In this document: piece by piece, positions 3,345-53,800 of the stretch
Numbering within the stretch: position 1 is the stretch's first letter
Layout: each line of letters opens with the position of its first letter
DNA from: a virus
Reading direction: 5' to 3' (one strand)
DNA length: 64,000 nucleotides
Virus record (IMG/VR): IMGVR_UViG_3300007539_004938
Span: 12,255-76,254 of that record
The notes under the pieces: model-generated
What the model saw: only the letters and a program-made list of their open reading frames with translations
Told to the model about the DNA's origin: nothing
Database searches by the model: none
Made by a program: the position numbers and the translations under genes

Positions 3345-4676
3345 TTGACAAACTGGTTTATGGGCATCTATTTTAGACCAAAAAATAATCTTTTACCCGA
3401 ACTTATATCAGAAACAGGCACAAGAAGACCTATGACAGATATCAGTACCATAGATCAACTTGTTGATTTAATCAGAGAATCTAATATTACTGATTCTACT
3501 CATCCTATTGCAGTGTTTAATGGCACTCATACTATAGATCATTTAGATAGTTTATTGATTTCAGAACAACACAAAAAGATTTTGCAAGAAAAAACAATCG
3601 GATTTTATTTTTATGAACCTTTGACACATTACAAATATAATCCTAATGGACATAAACAACCACACATTTTAAAAATAGATAACGCACCCGAAGAACTTAA
3701 AGACATTAGAGCATATGAACTAGATAGTCTAAACGAATGGGCAACTAAACACAATTTTAACAACGTAAATGTTTATTGTACAGATTACAAATGTTGGGAG
3801 TATTATCAACCTAAATATCCTAATATAAAACTACTATCTATGGACTTATTTGTAGAATGGTGGACATGTCATGTTAAGTTAAGAGATAGAAAAAACTTTA
3901 TACAAAATCGAGAAGAAATGCCTCCGGAGTTTTTTCCTGAAAAAATAGTAAAAAAGTTTTGGAGTGGAGCATGGAGATATGATCCAAGCAGACATTTTAT
4001 CACAGCATTTTTAGCAGGCAAAAATATGCTAGATACAAATCATGTTAGTTTTTATTATGGCATGTCAAACGAGGATATGAAAAGAAGAATGTGGTTTCCT
4101 TGGAAAGAGTTTGAGTTACGACATCCTGCACTGTCTAATATTTTACTCGAAGGTAATACAATTTTACAAGAAAAAGTTCCTTTAAGTTTTGCAGTTAACA
4201 ATCCTGCTAAAAAAGGAGCAAATGATAGTATTGAGCCTGAGGATAGTGGCTTAAACGCAAGAACTACGCACGATCCAACAGATACCTATTTTGAAAGTTT
4301 TTGTGCTATTGTTCAAGAAAGCAGAGTTACACAACCGTGGCCTAACATTAGCGAAAAAACTCTAAACGCAATAAAAAGTTATAGACCGTTTTTACTTTGT
4401 GGAGCACCTGGTGTTTTACAAATGCTAAAAGACATGGGCTTTAAAACATTTGACAAATACTGGCCAGAAGATTATGACGATATAATATCAAATAAAGATA
4501 GACTTGCACGTATTTGCGAAATAATAGAATACATTGATAGTTTTACAATAGAAGAAATGAAACTAATGTATCAAGACATGGAAGAGATCCTTATACACAA
4601 TCATAACAACATAAAGTCAATACCAAACTTTTATGTTAAAATAAATGAACAACTAGGTGAAATAATCATTGAATAG
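3345..4676 (+). CDS. Glycosyltransferase, GT10 / alpha-1,3-fucosyltransferase-like C-terminal domain
   Basis: YFESFCAIVQES...ISEKTLNAIKSYRPFLLCG...LKDMGFKTF resembles the GT10 nucleotide-sugar binding motif (F..EN...TEK...A....P...G); TTG start. Confidence 0.6.
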   Translation: MTNWFMGIYFRPKNNLLPELISETGTRRPMTDISTIDQLVDLIRESNITDSTHPIAVFNGTHTIDHLDSLLISEQHKKILQEKTIGFYFYEPLTHYKYNPNGHKQPHILKIDNAPEELKDIRAYELDSLNEWATKHNFNNVNVYCTDYKCWEYYQPKYPNIKLLSMDLFVEWWTCHVKLRDRKNFIQNREEMPPEFFPEKIVKKFWSGAWRYDPSRHFITAFLAGKNMLDTNHVSFYYGMSNEDMKRRMWFPWKEFELRHPALSNILLEGNTILQEKVPLSFAVNNPAKKGANDSIEPEDSGLNARTTHDPTDTYFESFCAIVQESRVTQPWPNISEKTLNAIKSYRPFLLCGAPGVLQMLKDMGFKTFDKYWPEDYDDIISNKDRLARICEIIEYIDSFTIEEMKLMYQDMEEILIHNHNNIKSIPNFYVKINEQLGEIIIE

Positions 4677-5411
4677 TTTATCTGCCCAATATTCGTGTGC
4701 ATCTTCTTTATGATGCCAAAATTTTTGTCCAGATATATCAAAGCCTTTATCTTTACAATGTTCCCAAAAACTTTCTTCTGGGTTATCAAAGTTTTTAAAC
4801 CTATTTCTATCTATTTTATTTCTGTAAAACTGATATCTACCTCCGTTTTTACATGCTTGAAATGCATTTGCAAAAATAAAGGGCGCTTCTATATTTTTGA
4901 TAATAGTTTGTGTTTGTATAATATTTAAATATCTTTTTACATACCAATGAGTACTACTGTAAAATAAATGTTTCCTTAATACCTTTTGATTATTATCAAA
5001 CTTTTTTGGAAACAGTTTACTAGAATGATCATGATGTACATGTCCAGCCTGTTTATCTGGAACATAATCTACAAAATCGTATACATCATTTAAACTATCA
5101 TCAGGTGTATCATAAAACATTTCTGTTCTATGTTCACCTGTCCAATGTATTAAAAACAAGGTATTTTTTGCACGTCGAGGATTATCTAGTATATAAAATA
5201 AAGTTGTTCTAGCTATGTAATCATTACTAGCACCAGGTACACTTAAATCTGTTTTATCTACACCTAATCTATTTGCTAGTTTAGCACCAAAAGATCGTTT
5301 TCTGTTTTCAGGATGGTCTCCTAATCCACTTCTAAAAATTTCACTTCCGGCTGCATGACTACAACCATTGATTAATATGTTTGTAAATTTGTAGTCAGAC
5401 AAACTGGCCAT
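4653..5411 (-). CDS. SGNH/GDSL-like protein
   Basis: ILINGCSHAAG, DLSVPGASNDYI, C-terminal WHHKEDAHEYWA. Confidence 0.65.
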   Translation of the reverse strand: MASLSDYKFTNILINGCSHAAGSEIFRSGLGDHPENRKRSFGAKLANRLGVDKTDLSVPGASNDYIARTTLFYILDNPRRAKNTLFLIHWTGEHRTEMFYDTPDDSLNDVYDFVDYVPDKQAGHVHHDHSSKLFPKKFDNNQKVLRKHLFYSSTHWYVKRYLNIIQTQTIIKNIEAPFIFANAFQACKNGGRYQFYRNKIDRNRFKNFDNPEESFWEHCKDKGFDISGQKFWHHKEDAHEYWADKLFNDYFT

Positions 5412-6981: not shown

Positions 6982-8257
6982 AGTTTCTTAACCATTCCAT
7001 TTCAGGAAATGTGCTCCAAAAATCTTCTCCACGATATTGATCTAATCTATGATTATTGTCAAAAAACTGCTTTAGTTTTGATTCATTTAAAGTTCCAGCG
7101 TTGAAGAACTGAATAACACTATCAATCTTTCCAATAACATCTTTGATTATCTCAGGCTTAGCCATTGCTCGATCTTTAATTTTATCAAATGCCCATGCCT
7201 TGTAATCAATATATTTACTTCTTAGTTCTTGTTTATAATGCTCAGGTATATAATCAACTCGCATAAAATCTGGACCAGTTAACATGTTAAGTCTGCAATT
7301 TTCAATATCAACTAAACCACGCTCAACCCAGTCCATGTGAAAGTCTGGCCAGTTCCAAACATTGTACAAACTTATAGTTGGTGTTAATTCGAAATGCACA
7401 TGTGGTACTTCTTCAATCATCTGTAAACGATTACGTTCAATCTGACCCCAATCTGTTCCATGACGACTATATTCTGCTCGTGCGCCGTTGCAATCTAAAC
7501 TTGCACTAACATGTATATCGTTAAACTGCTTCCAATATTCAAGAATACTTTTACGTTTGTACTTAAAATTACTGAAGTTTGTAGTGTAACGTAATGCTAC
7601 ATCAGTTTTATTAGTTTCTAACCATTTATCTAATATCTTATAATGTTCTTCGGTAATAAGTGCTTCGCCGCCTGCAAAATAAACTTCTTCGCAATCCGGC
7701 AAGTATTTTTGTAAATCTTCCCAAAAGTTATTCTTTTTTGCAATATTAATAATAATCTCGCCATCATTATTAAGTATATTTGCAACTTCATGTTTACCAT
7801 ATAGTTCACCGTGTTCTTTAGCATGTAGACTGCTAAGTTCAGGACCACAACTACGACACTTCATGTTACAAATATTACTAAATCTTACATCTAAATATAC
7901 CATACGCATTTCGTCGATACTACCATCGTTGTTAGTTTGCCGCACTAAATCAAAATGTTTATCTCCATACCAATGATTGTGATTTTTACGAAGAGTCCAC
8001 ACATAGGTCCTATCTTCTAACTCGTAACAACGTCTACAACAATCAAGTCTTTCTCCATTTAGCATAGCAAGACGCAGTTCTTTATATCTATCACTGTTCC
8101 ACGCTTCTTCGATACTACTTTGTTTTAAGTTAGCAAAAGGCTGATCGCTGTCTGCAATACAACAAGGCATAACTCTGCCATCAGGCCAGGCATGCATATG
8201 AATCCATGGTAAAATGCAAAATGCTTTGTTTTCTTTTAATAAATGTTCTTTATCCAT
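6974..8257 (-). CDS. Radical SAM protein with N-terminal twitch/SPASM domain
   Basis: CILPW...GRVMPCC...CCRRC, then CNMKCRSC, FAGGE, YTTN, SLD. Confidence 0.9.
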   Translation of the reverse strand: MDKEHLLKENKAFCILPWIHMHAWPDGRVMPCCIADSDQPFANLKQSSIEEAWNSDRYKELRLAMLNGERLDCCRRCYELEDRTYVWTLRKNHNHWYGDKHFDLVRQTNNDGSIDEMRMVYLDVRFSNICNMKCRSCGPELSSLHAKEHGELYGKHEVANILNNDGEIIINIAKKNNFWEDLQKYLPDCEEVYFAGGEALITEEHYKILDKWLETNKTDVALRYTTNFSNFKYKRKSILEYWKQFNDIHVSASLDCNGARAEYSRHGTDWGQIERNRLQMIEEVPHVHFELTPTISLYNVWNWPDFHMDWVERGLVDIENCRLNMLTGPDFMRVDYIPEHYKQELRSKYIDYKAWAFDKIKDRAMAKPEIIKDVIGKIDSVIQFFNAGTLNESKLKQFFDNNHRLDQYRGEDFWSTFPEMEWLRNYV

Positions 8258-49171: not shown

Positions 49172-50185
49172 TTGTTTAAAAAAGCAGCAGTATTTACTGA
49201 CATTCATTTTGGTATGAAGGGCAATAGTCGTGTCCATAACCAAGATTGCGAAGATTTTGTAGATTGGTACATTGAAACAGCAAAACAAAACGGTTGCGAA
49301 ACTGGTATTTTTTGTGGAGATTGGAATCACAACAGGAACAGTCTTAACTTAACCACTATGGATGCAGGTATCCGCAGTTTAGAAAAGTTAGGTGCTGCAT
49401 TTGATAAGTTTTATATGTTTTCTGGCAATCATGACTTATATTACAAAGACAAACGAGATATTAAAAGTACAGAATGGGCAAAACACATACCCGGTATTAC
49501 AGTTGTTGACAATATGTTGCAAATAGACGATGTTGCATTAGTTCCATGGATGGTAAATGATGAATGGAAACAAGTTGCTGCCATTGATTGCAAATACATG
49601 TTTGGACATTTTGAGTTGCCAAACTTTTTAATGAATGCAATGGTTAGAATGCCTGATCATGGTGAACTCAAAGCAGAAAACTTGAGTAAACCTGAGTATG
49701 TATTCAGTGGACACTTCCATAAACGCCAAAATCAAAAGAATGTACATTACATTGGTAATGCTTTTCCGCACAACTATGCAGATGCTTGGGATGATGACCG
49801 TGGTATGATGATATTGGACCGTGAAAATGCAGAAGAACCAGAATATATCAACTGGCCAAACTGTCCAAAGTACCGTACAGTTAAACTATCACAGTTGATT
49901 GACGAGAAAGATAGTTTGATCAAACCAAATATGTACTTGAGAGTAACTCTTGATTTACCTATTAGTTTTGAAGAAGCTAACTTTATTAAAGAAACATTTA
50001 TAAAAGATTATAAATGCAGAGAAATTACGCTTATTCCACAAAAAAACTTAGAAGAAATGAGTTCTGAATTAGATATTGAACACTTCGAAAGCGTTGATCA
50101 AATAGTAAGTAATGAAATTTTAGCAATAGATAGCGATAACTTTGATAAATCATTACTTTTAAAAATATACAATGAGTTAGAATGA
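49172..50185 (+). CDS. gp47: Recombination endonuclease subunit (Mre11/SbcD-like)
   Basis: DIHFG, GDW, GNHD, GHFE and SGHFH metallophosphoesterase motifs; TTG start. Confidence 0.92.
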   Translation: MFKKAAVFTDIHFGMKGNSRVHNQDCEDFVDWYIETAKQNGCETGIFCGDWNHNRNSLNLTTMDAGIRSLEKLGAAFDKFYMFSGNHDLYYKDKRDIKSTEWAKHIPGITVVDNMLQIDDVALVPWMVNDEWKQVAAIDCKYMFGHFELPNFLMNAMVRMPDHGELKAENLSKPEYVFSGHFHKRQNQKNVHYIGNAFPHNYADAWDDDRGMMILDRENAEEPEYINWPNCPKYRTVKLSQLIDEKDSLIKPNMYLRVTLDLPISFEEANFIKETFIKDYKCREITLIPQKNLEEMSSELDIEHFESVDQIVSNEILAIDSDNFDKSLLLKIYNELE

Positions 50186-51960
50186 TAAAACTTAAAGATC
50201 TTACAGTAAAAAACTTTATGAGCGTGGGTAATATTACTCAAGCAGTTGACTTTAACGAAGAACAGTTGACACTTGTACTTGGTGAGAACCTAGATCAAGG
50301 CGGTGACGACACCGGATCACGCAATGGTACAGGTAAAACAACTATTATTAATGCACTATCCTATGCATTGTACGGTCAAGCACTAACAAACATTAAACGT
50401 AATAACTTAATCAACAAAACTAATAGCAAAGGTATGTTAGTTACACTAAACTTTGAGAAAAATAACACTCAGTACCGTATCGAACGTGGTAGATCACCTA
50501 ATATACTCAAGTTTTTTGTAAACAATCAAGAACAAACTGACGAACTCGACGATAACAGTCAAGGTGATAGTCGTAAAACACAAGAAACTATTGGCGATTT
50601 ATTGAATATGAGTCATGATATGTTCAAACATATTGTTGCACTTAATACCTATACTGAGCCTTTCTTGAGTATGCGTACAAATGACCAAAGAGCTATTATC
50701 GAGCAGCTATTAGGCATAACAATTTTAAGTGATAAAGCAACATCTTTAAAAGATATTGTAAAAGAAACGAAAGATCGCATTACAGAAGAAACATTACGCA
50801 TCGATGCTATCAATTCTAGCAACGAAAAAATACAAAACAGCATTAATTCGTTAATCAACAGACAAAAAGCATGGAAAAGCAAACAAAAAAGCGACATTGA
50901 ACGATTAGATCAAGCTATTTCAGAATTAGAACAACTAGATATCGATAAAGAGTTAGAAAATCACCAAAAGTTGGTGGATTGGACTGAACTTAATAACAAA
51001 ATAACAAGTTTTAACAAAGAAAAATCTACTTTAGAGAGTGCTTTGATGCGAGCAACTAAAAGTGTTGACAAAGCAAGCAAAGATATTGCAGATTTAGATG
51101 ATGCTACTTGTTATACATGCGGTCAAGCACTGCATGAAGACAAAAAGGCGGAGATTCTTGCAACTAAAACCAAAGATTACCAAGATTCTATGGCATATCA
51201 AACAGAAGTTGCTGATAAACTCGAAGATGTAGTTAAAAATCTCAACGATATTGGTAATATTAACGGAAAACCTAATACTTTCTACGAAACTGCTAAAGAA
51301 GCATACGAACACAGAAACAACGTAGATAACTTAAAGCAAGCTAAGATAAGTAAACAGCAAGAAGAAGATCCATATCAGGCACAAGTTGATGATTTAACCA
51401 ATACAGCGTTACAAGAAGTTGATTGGTCTACAGTAAACGAACTTAATAACTTAAAAGAACACCAAGAGTTTCTCCTAAAACTCCTGACTAACAAAGATTC
51501 TTTCATTAGAAAGAAGATTATTGACCAAAACTTGGCATATTTAAACGCAAGGCTCACATATTACCTAGATAAAATAGGCTTACCGCATCAAGTGGTGTTC
51601 CAAAACGACTTAAATGTTGAGATTACACAACTTGGTCAGGACTTAGACTTTGATAACTTGTCAAGAGGCGAACGTAACAGACTAATACTTGGACTTTCGT
51701 TTGCATTCCGTGACGTTTGGGAGTCATTGTACCAAAATATCAACTTGTTGTTTATAGATGAGTTAATCGATAGCGGCATGGACACTGCTGGTGTGGAAAA
51801 TAGTATAGGCATACTCAAGAAAATGACTAGAGAGCGTAACAAAAACGTTTTCTTGATTAGTCATAAGGACGAATTAGTCGGTAGAGTTAACAATGTGTTA
51901 AAAGTTGTTAAGGAAAACGGCTTTACCAGCTATGCAAACGACATTGATATTATAGAATGA
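50182..51960 (+). CDS. gp46: Recombination ATPase subunit (Rad50/SbcC-like)
   Basis: KNFMSVGN, Walker A NGTGKT, zinc hook CYTCG, signature LSRGE, Walker B LLFIDE, ISH. Confidence 0.93.
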   Translation: MIKLKDLTVKNFMSVGNITQAVDFNEEQLTLVLGENLDQGGDDTGSRNGTGKTTIINALSYALYGQALTNIKRNNLINKTNSKGMLVTLNFEKNNTQYRIERGRSPNILKFFVNNQEQTDELDDNSQGDSRKTQETIGDLLNMSHDMFKHIVALNTYTEPFLSMRTNDQRAIIEQLLGITILSDKATSLKDIVKETKDRITEETLRIDAINSSNEKIQNSINSLINRQKAWKSKQKSDIERLDQAISELEQLDIDKELENHQKLVDWTELNNKITSFNKEKSTLESALMRATKSVDKASKDIADLDDATCYTCGQALHEDKKAEILATKTKDYQDSMAYQTEVADKLEDVVKNLNDIGNINGKPNTFYETAKEAYEHRNNVDNLKQAKISKQQEEDPYQAQVDDLTNTALQEVDWSTVNELNNLKEHQEFLLKLLTNKDSFIRKKIIDQNLAYLNARLTYYLDKIGLPHQVVFQNDLNVEITQLGQDLDFDNLSRGERNRLILGLSFAFRDVWESLYQNINLLFIDELIDSGMDTAGVENSIGILKKMTRERNKNVFLISHKDELVGRVNNVLKVVKENGFTSYANDIDIIE

Positions 51961-52205
51961 TTGAAGATGACACACATGATAAACTTGTAAAGGCATATCT
52001 TGATTATTTTGCCTTGAATGAAGAGTTTCAACAACGTCCTGCTGAGTTAAAACGTAGAAAAGTTAGGAAAAAACTTATTGAAATAACAAAGTTGTGCAGA
52101 ATTAGGCGAGAAGAAATACTACAAGAACATATTAGGCATGTAAAAGACGGCAGAGCAAAGAATAATCCAAAAAAGGCACGTGAAGCAAATCCAAAAAATA
52201 ACTAA
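51957..52205 (+). CDS. Small basic helical hypothetical protein
   Basis: 82 aa, Lys/Arg-rich, ATGA overlap with gp46. Confidence 0.65.
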   Translation: MIEDDTHDKLVKAYLDYFALNEEFQQRPAELKRRKVRKKLIEITKLCRIRREEILQEHIRHVKDGRAKNNPKKAREANPKNN

Positions 52206-52208
52206 TGT

Positions 52209-52634
52209 ATGAGTTGGACATACAAAGGCAAGAAGGTTGAATCAATACCTGACGAATACGAAGGCTTTGTATATCTGATTACAAACAAAAAGACAAAACA
52301 AAAGTATGTAGGCAAAAAACTAGCAAGGTTTAAAACTACAAAGCCACCACTAAAAGGCAAAAAGAACAAACGTCGAGGCTACAAAGAAAGCGATTGGCGT
52401 GAATACTGGGGAAGTTCAGATAGACTGAACGAAGATGTAAAAACTTTAGGCGAAAAAAACTTTACTCGTGAAATACTTTACTACTGCAAAAGCAGAGCAG
52501 AGATGAGTTACATTGAAGCACGAGAACAGTTTGATAGGCGAGTATTAGAAACAGACGAATACTACAACGGTATCATCAATGTAAGAGTTGGTGGTTCACA
52601 AAAACTACGCCAGGCACTACTAGAACACAAATAG
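52209..52634 (+). CDS. Stand-alone GIY-YIG endonuclease (catalytic domain only)
   Basis: GFVYLITN...KYVGKK, YWGSS, FTREIL, E..EQF, YYNG; TAACTA late-like hexamer 4 nt upstream of the ATG. Confidence 0.88.
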   Translation: MSWTYKGKKVESIPDEYEGFVYLITNKKTKQKYVGKKLARFKTTKPPLKGKKNKRRGYKESDWREYWGSSDRLNEDVKTLGEKNFTREILYYCKSRAEMSYIEAREQFDRRVLETDEYYNGIINVRVGGSQKLRQALLEHK

Positions 52635-53065
52635 GCTATATATTGAGCTTTGATTAAATCCAAGATCCAGCCGAGGTAATGCTCGTAGCCGGTGGTGTGG
52701 AATGCTCACGTGAAGAAGTATACGATAGGCTTTAAAGGAATGGGCTCTGAGAAAAAGCAACCCAAGGGTAAGTGTTTTCGCTTGTTAGGGAATAACTGCC
52801 TTCCGTTGATATGACGAAGCTAGAGTAGGGGGATACAGGTCAACCGCCTCCGACAACGAAAGTTGAATCTCTTTTAACAAGATGGCAGAAGCGACTCGAA
52901 TGATGCTTAAACCATATTCGCCCGGCAACGGGCGAATTATGACTTCACAATCTGAATGATACTAAAAGCATATGCTTACGCACATGCCTTGTTTCTTACT
53001 AATCACAAATACATAATATGTGTTGAGTGATAACGAAAACACAGATGAACGAAAGTTCATCTTAA
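52635..53065 (+). ncRNA. Candidate large structured non-coding RNA (or structured ssDNA/origin element)
   Basis: 470-bp gap with no ORF in the track; ~47% GC by hand count over 52661-52940 in an AT-rich genome; GNRA-capped hairpins at 52854-52865, 52916-52937 and 53043-53062; long-range pairings and a possible pseudoknot. Confidence 0.65.
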
Positions 53066-53068
53066 ATG

Positions 53069-53076
53069 CATAAATA
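53069..53076 (+). promoter_or_regulatory. Late promoter CATAAATA upstream of the gene at 53105
   Basis: TAAATA core followed by an AAGGA Shine-Dalgarno. Confidence 0.6.
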
Positions 53077-53104
53077 ATAGTGTTAGTTTTAAGGATATCT
53101 CACA

Positions 53105-53800
53105 ATGAAAGTCTATGCAATAGTAACTGAAGATGTAAATGAAGCACTTCCATTTACTCAAAAAGCAAAAATGATGAAGCAAGCTAAAAAAGCTGCTAAA
53201 GGTGCTACCAAAGATGAAGCACGTCAAATGGAAGTTGAATTACTAACTTATTTAAAAACATCACGACAAAATCCAACTGTAGATGCTGTACAAAAATATT
53301 TTGATCAAAAAGGTTTAGGTAATATTGCTGCACCGATTATGAAAAATTTCCAAACTAAAACAATGAAAAAAGCAGCAAGTAGCCAAGCACGTCAAGACAA
53401 AGCAAGAGCAGCTGGTCAAGCAGCAGCAAAACTAGGCGGACTAGCAAAACAAGGTGCATCAGCAGCAGGATCAGCTATTGGCAAAGCAGCAACAGCAGCT
53501 AAAAACATGAGCGGTGTAGTTCCTAAAAGTCAAATCGGTGGTCCAGCACCGATGTTTAAAAGTGTACGAGCAAACTCAAGTATGTATGAAGCTGAAGGTC
53601 AAGATGTACTAACTAAAGGCGAAGTACGTAATATTATTAATCAAGTAGTTGCTAAAGGTTACGGTGGTGCTGCTGGATTTGACAAAAGTAAGTTTGCTCA
53701 AGATGAACCAAAGGCAACATTTAAGTCTAGTCAAGTAGATCCTGAAACACAAGCAGCTATTGATAAACTTAAAGCAGCTGGATATAAAATTACAAAATAA
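53105..53800 (+). CDS. Ala/Lys-rich protein, possible internal head (core/ejection) protein
   Basis: Late promoter; N-terminus MKVYAIVTE-DVNE resembles T4 capsid-targeting leaders cleaved after Glu. Confidence 0.6.
   Translation: MKVYAIVTEDVNEALPFTQKAKMMKQAKKAAKGATKDEARQMEVELLTYLKTSRQNPTVDAVQKYFDQKGLGNIAAPIMKNFQTKTMKKAASSQARQDKARAAGQAAAKLGGLAKQGASAAGSAIGKAATAAKNMSGVVPKSQIGGPAPMFKSVRANSSMYEAEGQDVLTKGEVRNIINQVVAKGYGGAAGFDKSKFAQDEPKATFKSSQVDPETQAAIDKLKAAGYKITK

What the first reader, a model, noticed from the sequence alone, without database searches (positions are those of the whole stretch)
52199..53065. Stand-alone GIY-YIG nuclease followed directly by a ~430-nt GC-rich, multi-domain structured element: candidate nuclease-RNA system
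SEEN: the only long non-coding gap in the window starts at the GIY-YIG stop. It is ~47% GC by hand count (52661-52940), far above the AT-rich surroundings. Helices read by eye: ATTCGCCCG-GCAA-CGGGCGAAT (52916-52937, extended by CATA/TATG); CAAC-GAAA-GTTG (52854-52865); AGATGAAC-GAAA-GTTCATCT (53043-53062); GGGGG/CCTCC (52828-52832/52847-52851) inside AGAG/CTCT (52822-52825/52869-52872); and GTGAAG/CTTCAC (52710-52715/52943-52948, long range). A stem AGGGTA..TGTTTTC/GGGAATA..TGCCTT (52765-52802) has a loop CTTGTTA (52781-52787) complementary to TAACAAG (52875-52881), suggesting a pseudoknot. A UGAGA T-loop-like motif lies at 52748-52752. GNRA loops and G-U pairs read correctly on the + strand, the same strand as the nuclease. 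KNOWN: GIY-YIG homing enzymes normally carry extra DNA-binding domains, which this 141-aa protein lacks. HEARO/omega RNAs show that nuclease-adjacent RNAs can supply specificity. INFERENCE: this is a large ncRNA co-transcribed from the TAACTA promoter at 52199, possibly a cofactor or guide for the nuclease, a ribozyme, or a replication-primer RNA. I could not match it to tRNA, tmRNA, RNase P or group I/II intron signatures.
Basis: partly seen in the sequence, partly recalled or inferred. Interest (0 to 1): 0.85.

Follow-up and report, generated by a model that had tools for sequence, protein, structure and literature searches.

The report
Twin-box structured RNA behind phage nuclease
The gene-free stretch behind a small nuclease gene of this uncultured aquatic T4-like phage encodes a real, knotted RNA of about 430 bases that carries the same 7-letter word twice. 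Its job is unknown, and nothing shows that it guides the nuclease.

Summary
Window 52635-53104 is the only long ORF-free gap, and 52661-52940 is 47.5% GC against 34% for the window. About 68 related viral contigs carry the same element directly after the same GIY-YIG gene. On 41 sequences, 94.6% of cells pair. Thirty-two pairs change on both sides, against 10.3 in shuffles (0/500). G-U patterns fix the + strand.

The RNA matches no Rfam family. It has the build of the "twin-box" RNA that this scan has already reported many times on other DNA. Two identical 7-nt boxes (GAATGAT, 52898 and 52954) always change together and have no partner inside the RNA. Bacterial RNAs whose 5' third is the orphan Rfam motif Polynucleobacter-1 show the same motif order. 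My model of their core did not find this window.

The nuclease-RNA partnership is not supported. Homologous nucleases in Melnitz and P-SSM2 have no such RNA behind them. The bacterial RNAs lie beside a DUF6641 gene and a minimal tyrosine recombinase instead. The function is unknown. I favour a trans-acting RNA whose conserved gene serves as a landing pad for selfish DNA enzymes.

The parts
52209..52634 (+). Stand-alone SegE-type GIY-YIG nuclease gene (141 aa, catalytic domain only). It is the neighbour of the RNA and possibly shares its transcript.
   Evidence: Pfam PF19835, E 7.6e-33, residues 3-123. It lies after gp46 in all 80 related loci. It is 40% identical to P-SSM2 PSSM2_218.
52635..53065 (+). 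Twin-box structured ncRNA, about 430 nt. The 5' end is not mapped. The 3' end is taken as the last conserved hairpin.
   Evidence: Conserved at 80-92% identity in about 68 viral contigs, always directly after the GIY-YIG stop. Covariation. No conserved ORF. No Rfam match.
52644..52708 (+). 5' domain. Closing helix 52644-52648/52704-52708 encloses helices 52659-52662/52698-52701 and 52667-52675/52682-52692.
   Evidence: helices 1-3. Three of five closing pairs change on both sides (CG/UA, AU/GC, GC/AU).
52741..52765 (+). Hairpin 52741-52744/52761-52765.
   Evidence: helix 6 (UA/GC/CG swaps). Alignment.
52766..52801 (+). Hairpin 52766-52774/52794-52801. Its loop holds the 5' strand of the pseudoknot.
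   Evidence: helix 8. L140 and L115 carry compensating changes.
52781..52787 (+). Pseudoknot, 5' strand (CTTGTTA).
   Evidence: Pairs with 52875-52881. 99.6% of cells paired, with UA to GC and AU swaps and one-sided G-U changes (helix 9).
52875..52881 (+). Pseudoknot, 3' strand (TAACAAG).
   Evidence: helix 9.
52822..52872 (+). Central domain. Helix AGAG/CTCT (52822-52825/52869-52872) encloses the invariant hairpin 52828-52851 (GGGGGATACAGGTCAACCGCCTCC) and the variable hairpin 52854-52865.
   Evidence: helices 11-14. Length-variable hairpin replacements.
52898..52904 (+). Box 1 (GAATGAT), in the context GCGACTC-box-GC.
   Evidence: Always identical to box 2 in positions 1-6. Six versions across types A and B. 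In type A, 10 G/G and 31 A/A with none mixed, and at least 3-5 changes on the tree.
52916..52937 (+). Hairpin ATTCGCCCG-GCAA-CGGGCGAAT between the two boxes.
   Evidence: helix 17.
52954..52960 (+). Box 2 (GAATGAT), in the context CACAATCT-box-AC.
52968..52987 (+). Hairpin GCATATGC-TTAC-GCACATGC.
   Evidence: helix 18: 7 of 8 pairs change on both sides.
53020..53042 (+). Hairpin GTGTT-GAGTGATAACGAA-AACAC, with a tandem G-A, a 2-bp stem and a GNNA loop. The same module occurs in type B and in bacterial RNAs.
   Evidence: helices 19-20 (UA/CG swap in 12 sequences)..
53043..53062 (+). Last hairpin, AGATGAAC-GAAA-GTTCATCT, the likely 3' end. It has no U-run on the + strand.
   Evidence: helix 21 (AU/UA 20:18). 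One search lists it as terminator-like only on the - strand.
53069..53076 (+). CATAAATA. It resembles the T4-type late promoter TATAAATA, for the next gene (inference).
   Evidence: Sequence. A TAAATA-like word follows the last hairpin in relatives although the downstream genes differ. RNA contigs resume at 53093 and 53099.

Best explanation
The gap encodes a real, independently selected, pseudoknotted non-coding RNA of about 430 nt on the + strand.

Layout: a 5' domain; a central domain locked by the 52781/52875 pseudoknot; then two single-stranded 7-nt boxes with identical sequence, each followed by a hairpin; then a conserved GA-hairpin and a final hairpin.

I infer that it is made as the tail of the gp47-gp46-GIY-YIG transcription unit. 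I infer that it acts in trans, with the two boxes as a bivalent, fast-evolving specificity element that pairs with a nucleic acid outside the RNA.

The GIY-YIG gene is most likely a free-standing homing-endonuclease gene parked beside a conserved RNA gene. Such enzymes also sit beside tRNA and rRNA genes. It is probably not a protein partner of the RNA.

Shown: the RNA structure, the strand, the twin-box rule, and the absence of an internal partner. Inferred: trans action, the transcript ends, and the landing-pad role.
For: - Structure: 94.6% of cells paired; 32 pairs change on both sides against 10.3 in shuffles (0/500) and 2-11 in slid controls.
- Strand: many G-U to A-U or G-C one-sided changes would be C-A mismatches on the other strand.
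- Not coding: one-base and hairpin-sized indels, and no conserved frame.
- Twin boxes: always alike, in six versions, with at least 3-5 joint changes within type A.
- No covarying column inside the RNA or in 1.1 kb upstream. None in full-length bacterial relatives either.
- Independence from the nuclease.
- Downstream genes differ among loci while the RNA stays, so it is not their leader.
- RNA-library contigs cover the nuclease gene and the RNA up to 52905-52907.
Against: - No trans target was found.
- The box word and its complement occur at chance frequency in the window.
- Matches in gp46 are explained by coding constraint.
- In every viral contig that reaches far enough, this RNA type is linked to the GIY-YIG gene, so a functional tie in this clade is not excluded.
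- No RNA-library contig covers 52908-53092, so the size of the mature RNA is open.
- Homology to the bacterial RNAs rests on motif order only. My covariance model of their core did not find the window.
Confidence: 0.5

Rival explanations
1. Guide or scaffold RNA for DNA enzymes that consist of a catalytic domain only. The twin boxes would pair with DNA and recruit the 141-aa GIY-YIG nuclease in phages, or a 188-aa tyrosine recombinase in bacteria, to chosen sites.
For: - Both neighbouring enzymes lack DNA-binding domains. GIY-YIG residues 3-123 of 141 are the catalytic domain. The recombinases are PF00589 only, residues 6-176 of 188.
- The boxes behave like guides: a conserved scaffold with free-changing words and no internal partner.
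- From general knowledge: tyrosine recombinases need an identical 6-8-bp crossover region in both partner sites, which would explain two identical 7-nt words.
- The RNA is strictly linked to GIY-YIG in this clade.
Against: - Homologous nucleases in Melnitz and P-SSM2 have no such RNA behind them.
- No extra copy of the box marks nearby DNA in 20 bacterial loci or in the window.
- The recombinase starts about 360 nt after the RNA's last hairpin.
- In two bacterial loci, 21-nt inverted repeats flank the RNA gene, so the recombinase may be an ordinary invertase.
- Adjacency is also what a landing-pad model predicts.
- No paper on RNA-guided tyrosine recombinases or GIY-YIG enzymes was found.
Confidence: 0.12
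2. Cis-acting 3' end of the early operon. The knotted fold would stop exonucleases or RNA polymerase, insulate the late genes downstream, or be a processing site. It would have no trans target.
For: - It lies at the end of the gp47-gp46-GIY-YIG unit, just before a late-promoter-like word.
- It ends in a conserved hairpin.
- RNA contigs of two runs stop at 52905 and 52907, right after box 1. Contigs resume only at 53093-53099.
Against: - A 430-nt multi-domain fold with a pseudoknot and two co-evolving 7-nt words is far more than a stabiliser or terminator needs.
- Bacterial RNAs of the same build stand alone, with a divergently oriented gene on their 5' side.
- The last hairpin has no U-run on the + strand.
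Confidence: 0.15
3. Self-processing or mobile ribozyme, intron-like. The two identical boxes would be its two cleavage or ligation sites.
For: - It is next to a homing-endonuclease gene.
- It has a pseudoknotted core of intron size.
- Identical words flank a 56-nt hairpin segment.
- RNA contigs end just after box 1.
Against: - No group I, group II or small-ribozyme model matches, even at E below 10.
- No internal guide covaries with the boxes.
- There is no host gene to be restored, because the flanking genes differ among loci.
- No contig joins across the boxes.
Confidence: 0.05
4. Decayed coding sequence, for instance the lost DNA-binding domain of the Seg-type nuclease.
For: The nuclease is shorter than T4 SegE (general knowledge), and the gap starts at its stop codon.
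Against: - Compensatory base changes.
- Hairpin-sized and one-base indels.
- No shared frame.
- Invariant blocks are more conserved than the neighbouring genes, which are about 75% identical.
Confidence: 0.01

Closest known systems
'Twin-box' phage RNA reported earlier in this scan (unpublished AI notes, e.g. e1-6005924, e1-5912852, e1-5339106)
   Same: Same place (behind a minimal GIY-YIG gene after gp46 of uncultured aquatic T4-like phages). Same size, pseudoknot, and two identical fast-changing 7-nt words with no internal partner. One note's stretch shares 60 of 84 short words with this window.
   Different: Nothing essential. This window is one more member (type A, box GAATGAT). I re-derived the structure, the twin-box rule and the lack of a partner independently.
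Polynucleobacter-1 RNA motif (Rfam RF01718; Weinberg et al. 2010, PMC2864571)
   Same: - The paper says most members lie downstream of a gene family like P-SSM2 PSSM2_218. I show that gene is a homologue of this window's GIY-YIG.
- Full-length bacterial RNAs that start with RF01718 continue in the same order as the window RNA. First comes a GGAGAYAGCGAAACCGCCC hairpin (window: GGGGGATACAGGTCAACCGCCTCC). Then come ACUC-box, a hairpin, AAUCU-box, a GAGCG..GCGAAA hairpin and a final hairpin.
   Different: - RF01718 does not match this window or its relatives, even at E below 10.
- nhmmer finds no similarity between the window-type RNA and the bacterial loci beyond one marginal 3' hit (E 0.008). 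A covariance model of the bacterial core finds nothing in the window.
- The Rfam model covers only the 5' third. The function is unknown.
HEARO / omega RNA of IscB and TnpB, and bridge RNA of IS110 (guide RNAs beside mobile-element enzymes)
   Same: A structured RNA next to a small DNA enzyme of a selfish element, with short variable words in a conserved scaffold.
   Different: - There is no evidence of binding or guiding.
- The enzyme families (GIY-YIG, tyrosine recombinase) have no known RNA-guided member in the papers searched.
- The two words are identical to each other, unlike the target and donor loops of a bridge RNA.
- The nuclease family occurs without the RNA.
GOLLD, ROOL and OLE: large orphan 'ornate' ncRNAs, some carried by phages
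   Same: Large, multi-domain, strongly covarying RNA of unknown function, found by comparative genomics and partly phage-borne.
   Different: No sequence or model match. Those RNAs have no twin-box feature.

Membership tests
Polynucleobacter-1 (Rfam RF01718) | Match to the Rfam covariance model at its gathering score (37 bits) | tested here: not met
   No match in the window at gathering score or at E below 10. None in 18 related phage loci. The same search gives 53-104 bits in 18 bacterial loci.
Polynucleobacter-1 (Rfam RF01718) | Lies downstream of a GOS11034 / PSSM2_218-like gene (Weinberg 2010, supplement) | tested here: met
   PSSM2_218 is 40% identical to the window's GIY-YIG protein, E 4e-22.
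Full-length Polynucleobacter-1 / twin-box RNA | Order of downstream modules: GGRG..AACCGCC hairpin, ACUC-box, hairpin, AAUCU-box, GAGCG..GCGAAA hairpin, final hairpin | tested here: inconclusive
   The same order is seen by inspection (against 53). A covariance model of the bacterial core gives no hit in the window, and only E = 2 at the right place in type B locus L057.
Twin-box RNA (this scan's working name) | Two 7-nt words, 54-78 nt apart, identical within each RNA but different between relatives | tested here: met
   GAATGAT at 52898 and 52954. The first six letters of the two boxes agree in every locus where both were found; 56 of 62 pairs are identical over all seven letters. At least 3-5 joint changes on the type A tree. 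Ten further versions in bacterial loci.
Twin-box RNA (this scan's working name) | Pseudoknotted core supported by covariation | tested here: met
   helix 9, with nested helices 8 and 11.
Group I / group II introns and small self-cleaving ribozymes | Match to any Rfam intron or ribozyme model | tested here: not met
Guide RNA of an RNA-guided nuclease (HEARO / omega-RNA type) | Obligate linkage of the enzyme family and the RNA | tested here: not met
   Nuclease homologues without the RNA: Melnitz, P-SSM2, and 773 phage records with none matching the RNA. Bacterial RNAs without the nuclease.
Guide RNA of an RNA-guided nuclease (HEARO / omega-RNA type) | Protein binds the RNA, and the guide word pairs with the DNA target | not testable with these tools
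   No RNA-protein prediction tool is on hand, and no target was found.
SegE-type GIY-YIG endonuclease (Pfam PF19835) | Domain match above the cut-off, with the GIY and YIG motifs present | tested here: met
   113.8 bits against a cut-off of 25. GFVYLI...KYVGK is seen in the translation. No further domain: 18 residues follow the match.

The most novel reading that the evidence does not exclude
The twin-box RNA is a programmable adaptor for DNA enzymes that have only a catalytic domain. Its two identical 7-nt boxes would pair with two DNA sites, or with both arms of one site. They would deliver the 141-aa GIY-YIG nuclease in phages, or the 188-aa tyrosine recombinase in bacteria. For the recombinase, two identical guides would match its need for an identical 6-8-bp crossover sequence in both partner sites. 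This would be an RNA-guided tyrosine recombinase or GIY-YIG nuclease; neither turned up in the papers searched.
Probability: 0.1. Interest if true: 0.95.

Novelty: new variant of a known kind. Interest (0 to 1): 0.6.

Why it matters
This is one of the larger orphan RNAs of aquatic phages. It is conserved more tightly than the genes around it, widespread, and still without a function. Its odd feature is two words that must stay identical yet are free to change. That points to a sequence-specific partner that nobody has found.

The RNA class keeps turning up beside minimal DNA-cutting or DNA-joining enzymes. Finding the partner would settle whether these enzymes merely park at a conserved RNA gene or use the RNA. 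Only the 5' third of the bacterial form is catalogued, as RF01718. This window's form is in no catalogue, so genome annotation misses it.

Tried and rejected
- Rfam at gathering score and at E below 10, on the window and on 18 related loci: nothing relevant. RF01718 alone on the contig: nothing.
- blastn of the type A and type B RNA against 50,697 phage records: no match.
- The 231-aa downstream protein: no Pfam family and no relative in phages or viral contigs.
- tRNA or tmRNA: none.
- Boxes read as sense codon plus stop (GAA-UGA, ACA-UAA and so on), or as gene-60-like take-off and landing sites. Rejected: no consistent upstream frame, and bacterial boxes such as AGCGAAA do not fit.
- Box equals the gp47/gp46 and gp46/ORF82 junction word (GAATGAT at 50180 and 51955). 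Rejected: those junctions stay GAATGA in loci whose box is ACATGAA.
- Box complement in gp46 at about -880 and -1066. Explained by conserved codons (LLFIDE, YYLD), and absent in type B.
- Box as the complement of a tRNA anticodon loop. Most versions would put a pyrimidine at position 37 (reasoning only).
- Search for a covarying partner: none inside the RNA, in 1.1 kb upstream, or in bacterial full-length RNAs.
- Extra box copies as att-like sites in 20 bacterial loci: chance level.
- Covariance model of the bacterial core against the window and type A and B loci: no significant hit.
- Scan of viral contigs with the bacterial motif: four contigs, none with gp46, GIY-YIG or visible twin boxes.
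- Tyrosine recombinase in the 76-kb contig: none. The contig is only about 21% of a genome.
- Single-sequence folding gave no clear signal: z = -1.9 on the + strand and -3.0 on the - strand.
- No RNA-library contig covers 52908-53092. This is not evidence of absence.

Full report
**Setting.** The window is part of a 76-kb IMG/VR viral contig. It comes from an uncultured aquatic T4-like phage.
- The gene order is gp47 (49172-50185), gp46 (50182-51960), an 82-aa ORF, a 141-aa GIY-YIG gene (52209-52634), a 470-nt gap, a 231-aa ORF, then baseplate genes.
- The closest named nuclease is that of Methylophilales phage Melnitz, at 70% identity.
- DNA runs that hold the stretch are freshwater, estuary and seawater metagenomes.

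**Observation.**
- The gap is the only internal ORF-free stretch longer than 250 nt.
- GC is 47.5% for 52661-52940, against 34% for the window.
- The nuclease is a SegE-type GIY-YIG domain with nothing attached.

**Is it conserved?**
- A protein-based scan gave 80 loci with the same gene after gp46.
- Twenty-two of them carry the element at 80-91% identity, directly after the stop codon.
- An 18-mer from its core found 71 contig stretches. Three are chance hits in coding DNA. In the rest, the GIY-YIG gene sits directly upstream wherever the contig reaches that far.
- The alignment shows long invariant blocks, one-base indels, and whole hairpins swapped for longer ones.
- The genes downstream differ from locus to locus.

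**Structure.** I took a hand-curated structure of 105 pairs in 21 helices and counted it on 41 sequences.
- 94.6% of cells pair.
- 32 pairs change on both sides, against 10.3 in shuffles (0/500) and 2-11 when partners are slid.
So does the pseudoknot 52781-52787 with 52875-52881. L140 and L115 carry the swaps U-A to G-C and to A-U there.
- The long-range GTGAAG/CTTCAC helix has no covariation, and one of its pairs is broken in six sequences.
- Many one-sided G-U changes fit only the + strand.
- There is no conserved reading frame.

**Twin boxes.** Notes from earlier runs of this scan gave me this lead, and I then tested it here.
- GAATGAT occurs at 52898 and at 52954, flanking the hairpin 52916-52937.
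- Across unique loci the first six letters of the two words always agree; only the seventh sometimes differs. Seen on both sides: GAATAAT (27 loci), ACATGAA (24), GAATGAT, ACGTGAA, ACATAAT and AGATGAT.
- Within type A there are 10 G/G and 31 A/A loci and none mixed. The tree needs at least 3-5 joint changes.
- No column inside the RNA or in the 1.1 kb upstream changes in step with the boxes.

**A second type at the same place.** Loci whose nuclease is 83-89% identical carry a different conserved RNA, which I call type B.
- It starts GGTTGGCGGGCCAG.
- It has rich covariation of its own.
- It shares the twin-box module and the 3' hairpins with type A.

**Known relatives.** Rfam has no match.
- Weinberg et al. 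2010 wrote that Polynucleobacter-1 RNAs lie downstream of genes like P-SSM2 PSSM2_218. That gene is a homologue of this nuclease, E 4e-22.
- The flanks printed in their alignment show ACUC-AGCGAAA ... AAUCU-AGCGAAA.
- A motif from those flanks found 45 bacterial stretches. Twenty of them carry twin boxes, in ten versions. All 18 that I scanned start with RF01718.
- Their module order matches that of the window RNA.
- nhmmer found no similarity between the window-type RNA and those loci beyond one marginal 3' hit, E 0.008. A covariance model of the bacterial core found nothing in the window.
- Family membership therefore rests on architecture and gene context only.

**Partner or neighbour?**
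- The nuclease family occurs without the RNA in Melnitz and P-SSM2.
- None of the 773 phage records with a homologous nuclease matches the RNA by blastn.
- The bacterial RNAs have no GIY-YIG gene nearby.
- Instead they have a divergently oriented DUF6641 gene upstream. Downstream they have a 188-194-aa tyrosine recombinase made of the catalytic domain alone.
- I read this as selfish DNA enzymes parking beside a conserved RNA gene.
- The alternative is that the RNA serves enzymes that lack DNA-binding domains. It is not excluded, and I give it as the novel case.

**Expression.** Contigs from four RNA libraries cover the nuclease gene and run into the RNA.
- Two of them stop at 52905 and 52907, just after box 1.
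- Contigs resume at 53093-53099, after a CATAAATA word.
- Contigs cannot show strand, ends or level, so this is only a weak hint of processing or termination at box 1.

**Verdict.** This is a real ncRNA and one more member of a class this scan has met repeatedly. The nuclease-RNA system is unsupported. The function is unknown.

Noticed in passing
L022, L027, L029, L034, L043, L044, L057, L062, L065, L074 (about 3421-3950 in most): Related phages carry a different conserved structured RNA ('type B', starting GGTTGGCGGGCCAG) at exactly the same place behind the GIY-YIG gene. Its boxes are ACATGAA, ACGTGAA or ACATAAT, and it shares the 3' modules with type A.
   Followed up: partly
L184:5700-7712, L186:3626-5640, L169, L194, L161, L171, L197, L166, L177, L189: In Polynucleobacter, Limnohabitans and other bacterial genomes and MAGs, mostly Burkholderiales, there is a conserved module. 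A DUF6641 gene lies divergently upstream. Then comes a roughly 480-nt RF01718-plus-twin-box RNA. Then comes a 188-194-aa tyrosine recombinase with the catalytic domain only, about 360 nt further on.
   Followed up: partly
L184:5847-5867 with 7020-7040; L186:3768-3788 with 4948-4968: 21-nt imperfect inverted repeats flank about 1.15 kb that holds part of the DUF6641 gene and the whole RNA gene, just upstream of the small recombinase. This may be an invertible segment. The differences between the two loci are not compensatory.
   Followed up: no
window 52905-52907 and 53093-53099: RNA-library contigs of two runs end 1-3 nt after box 1. No contig of four runs covers 52908-53092. Contigs resume just before the next gene.
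   Followed up: no
window 50180-50186 and 51955-51961: GAATGAT, the box word, also forms the overlapping stop/start junctions gp47/gp46 and gp46/ORF82. Four of six + strand copies in 64 kb lie within 2.8 kb. The junction word does not change with the box in relatives, so I take it as coincidence.
   Followed up: yes
L016, L038, L032, L075, L035, L066, L072, L068, L030, L053 and others: At least 17 of 101 distinct related contigs end within 200 nt after the GIY-YIG stop codon. Assemblies tend to break where the RNA types diverge.
   Followed up: no
window 52905-52906 and 52961-52962: In type A the second base after each box also changes in step (GC with AC, or GT with AT). The first base stays G after box 1 and A after box 2. 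This does not hold in type B.
   Followed up: partly
L198:26712-27146 (P-SSM2 PSSM2_218) and other hits: Homologues of this GIY-YIG protein are annotated as 'NAD synthetase' in many cyanophage and rhizobiophage records. This looks like a propagated misannotation.
   Followed up: partly
window 51957-52205 and 53105-53800: The 82-aa ORF before the nuclease and the 231-aa alanine- and lysine-rich ORF after the RNA have no Pfam family. The latter has no relative in phage records or viral contigs.
   Followed up: partly
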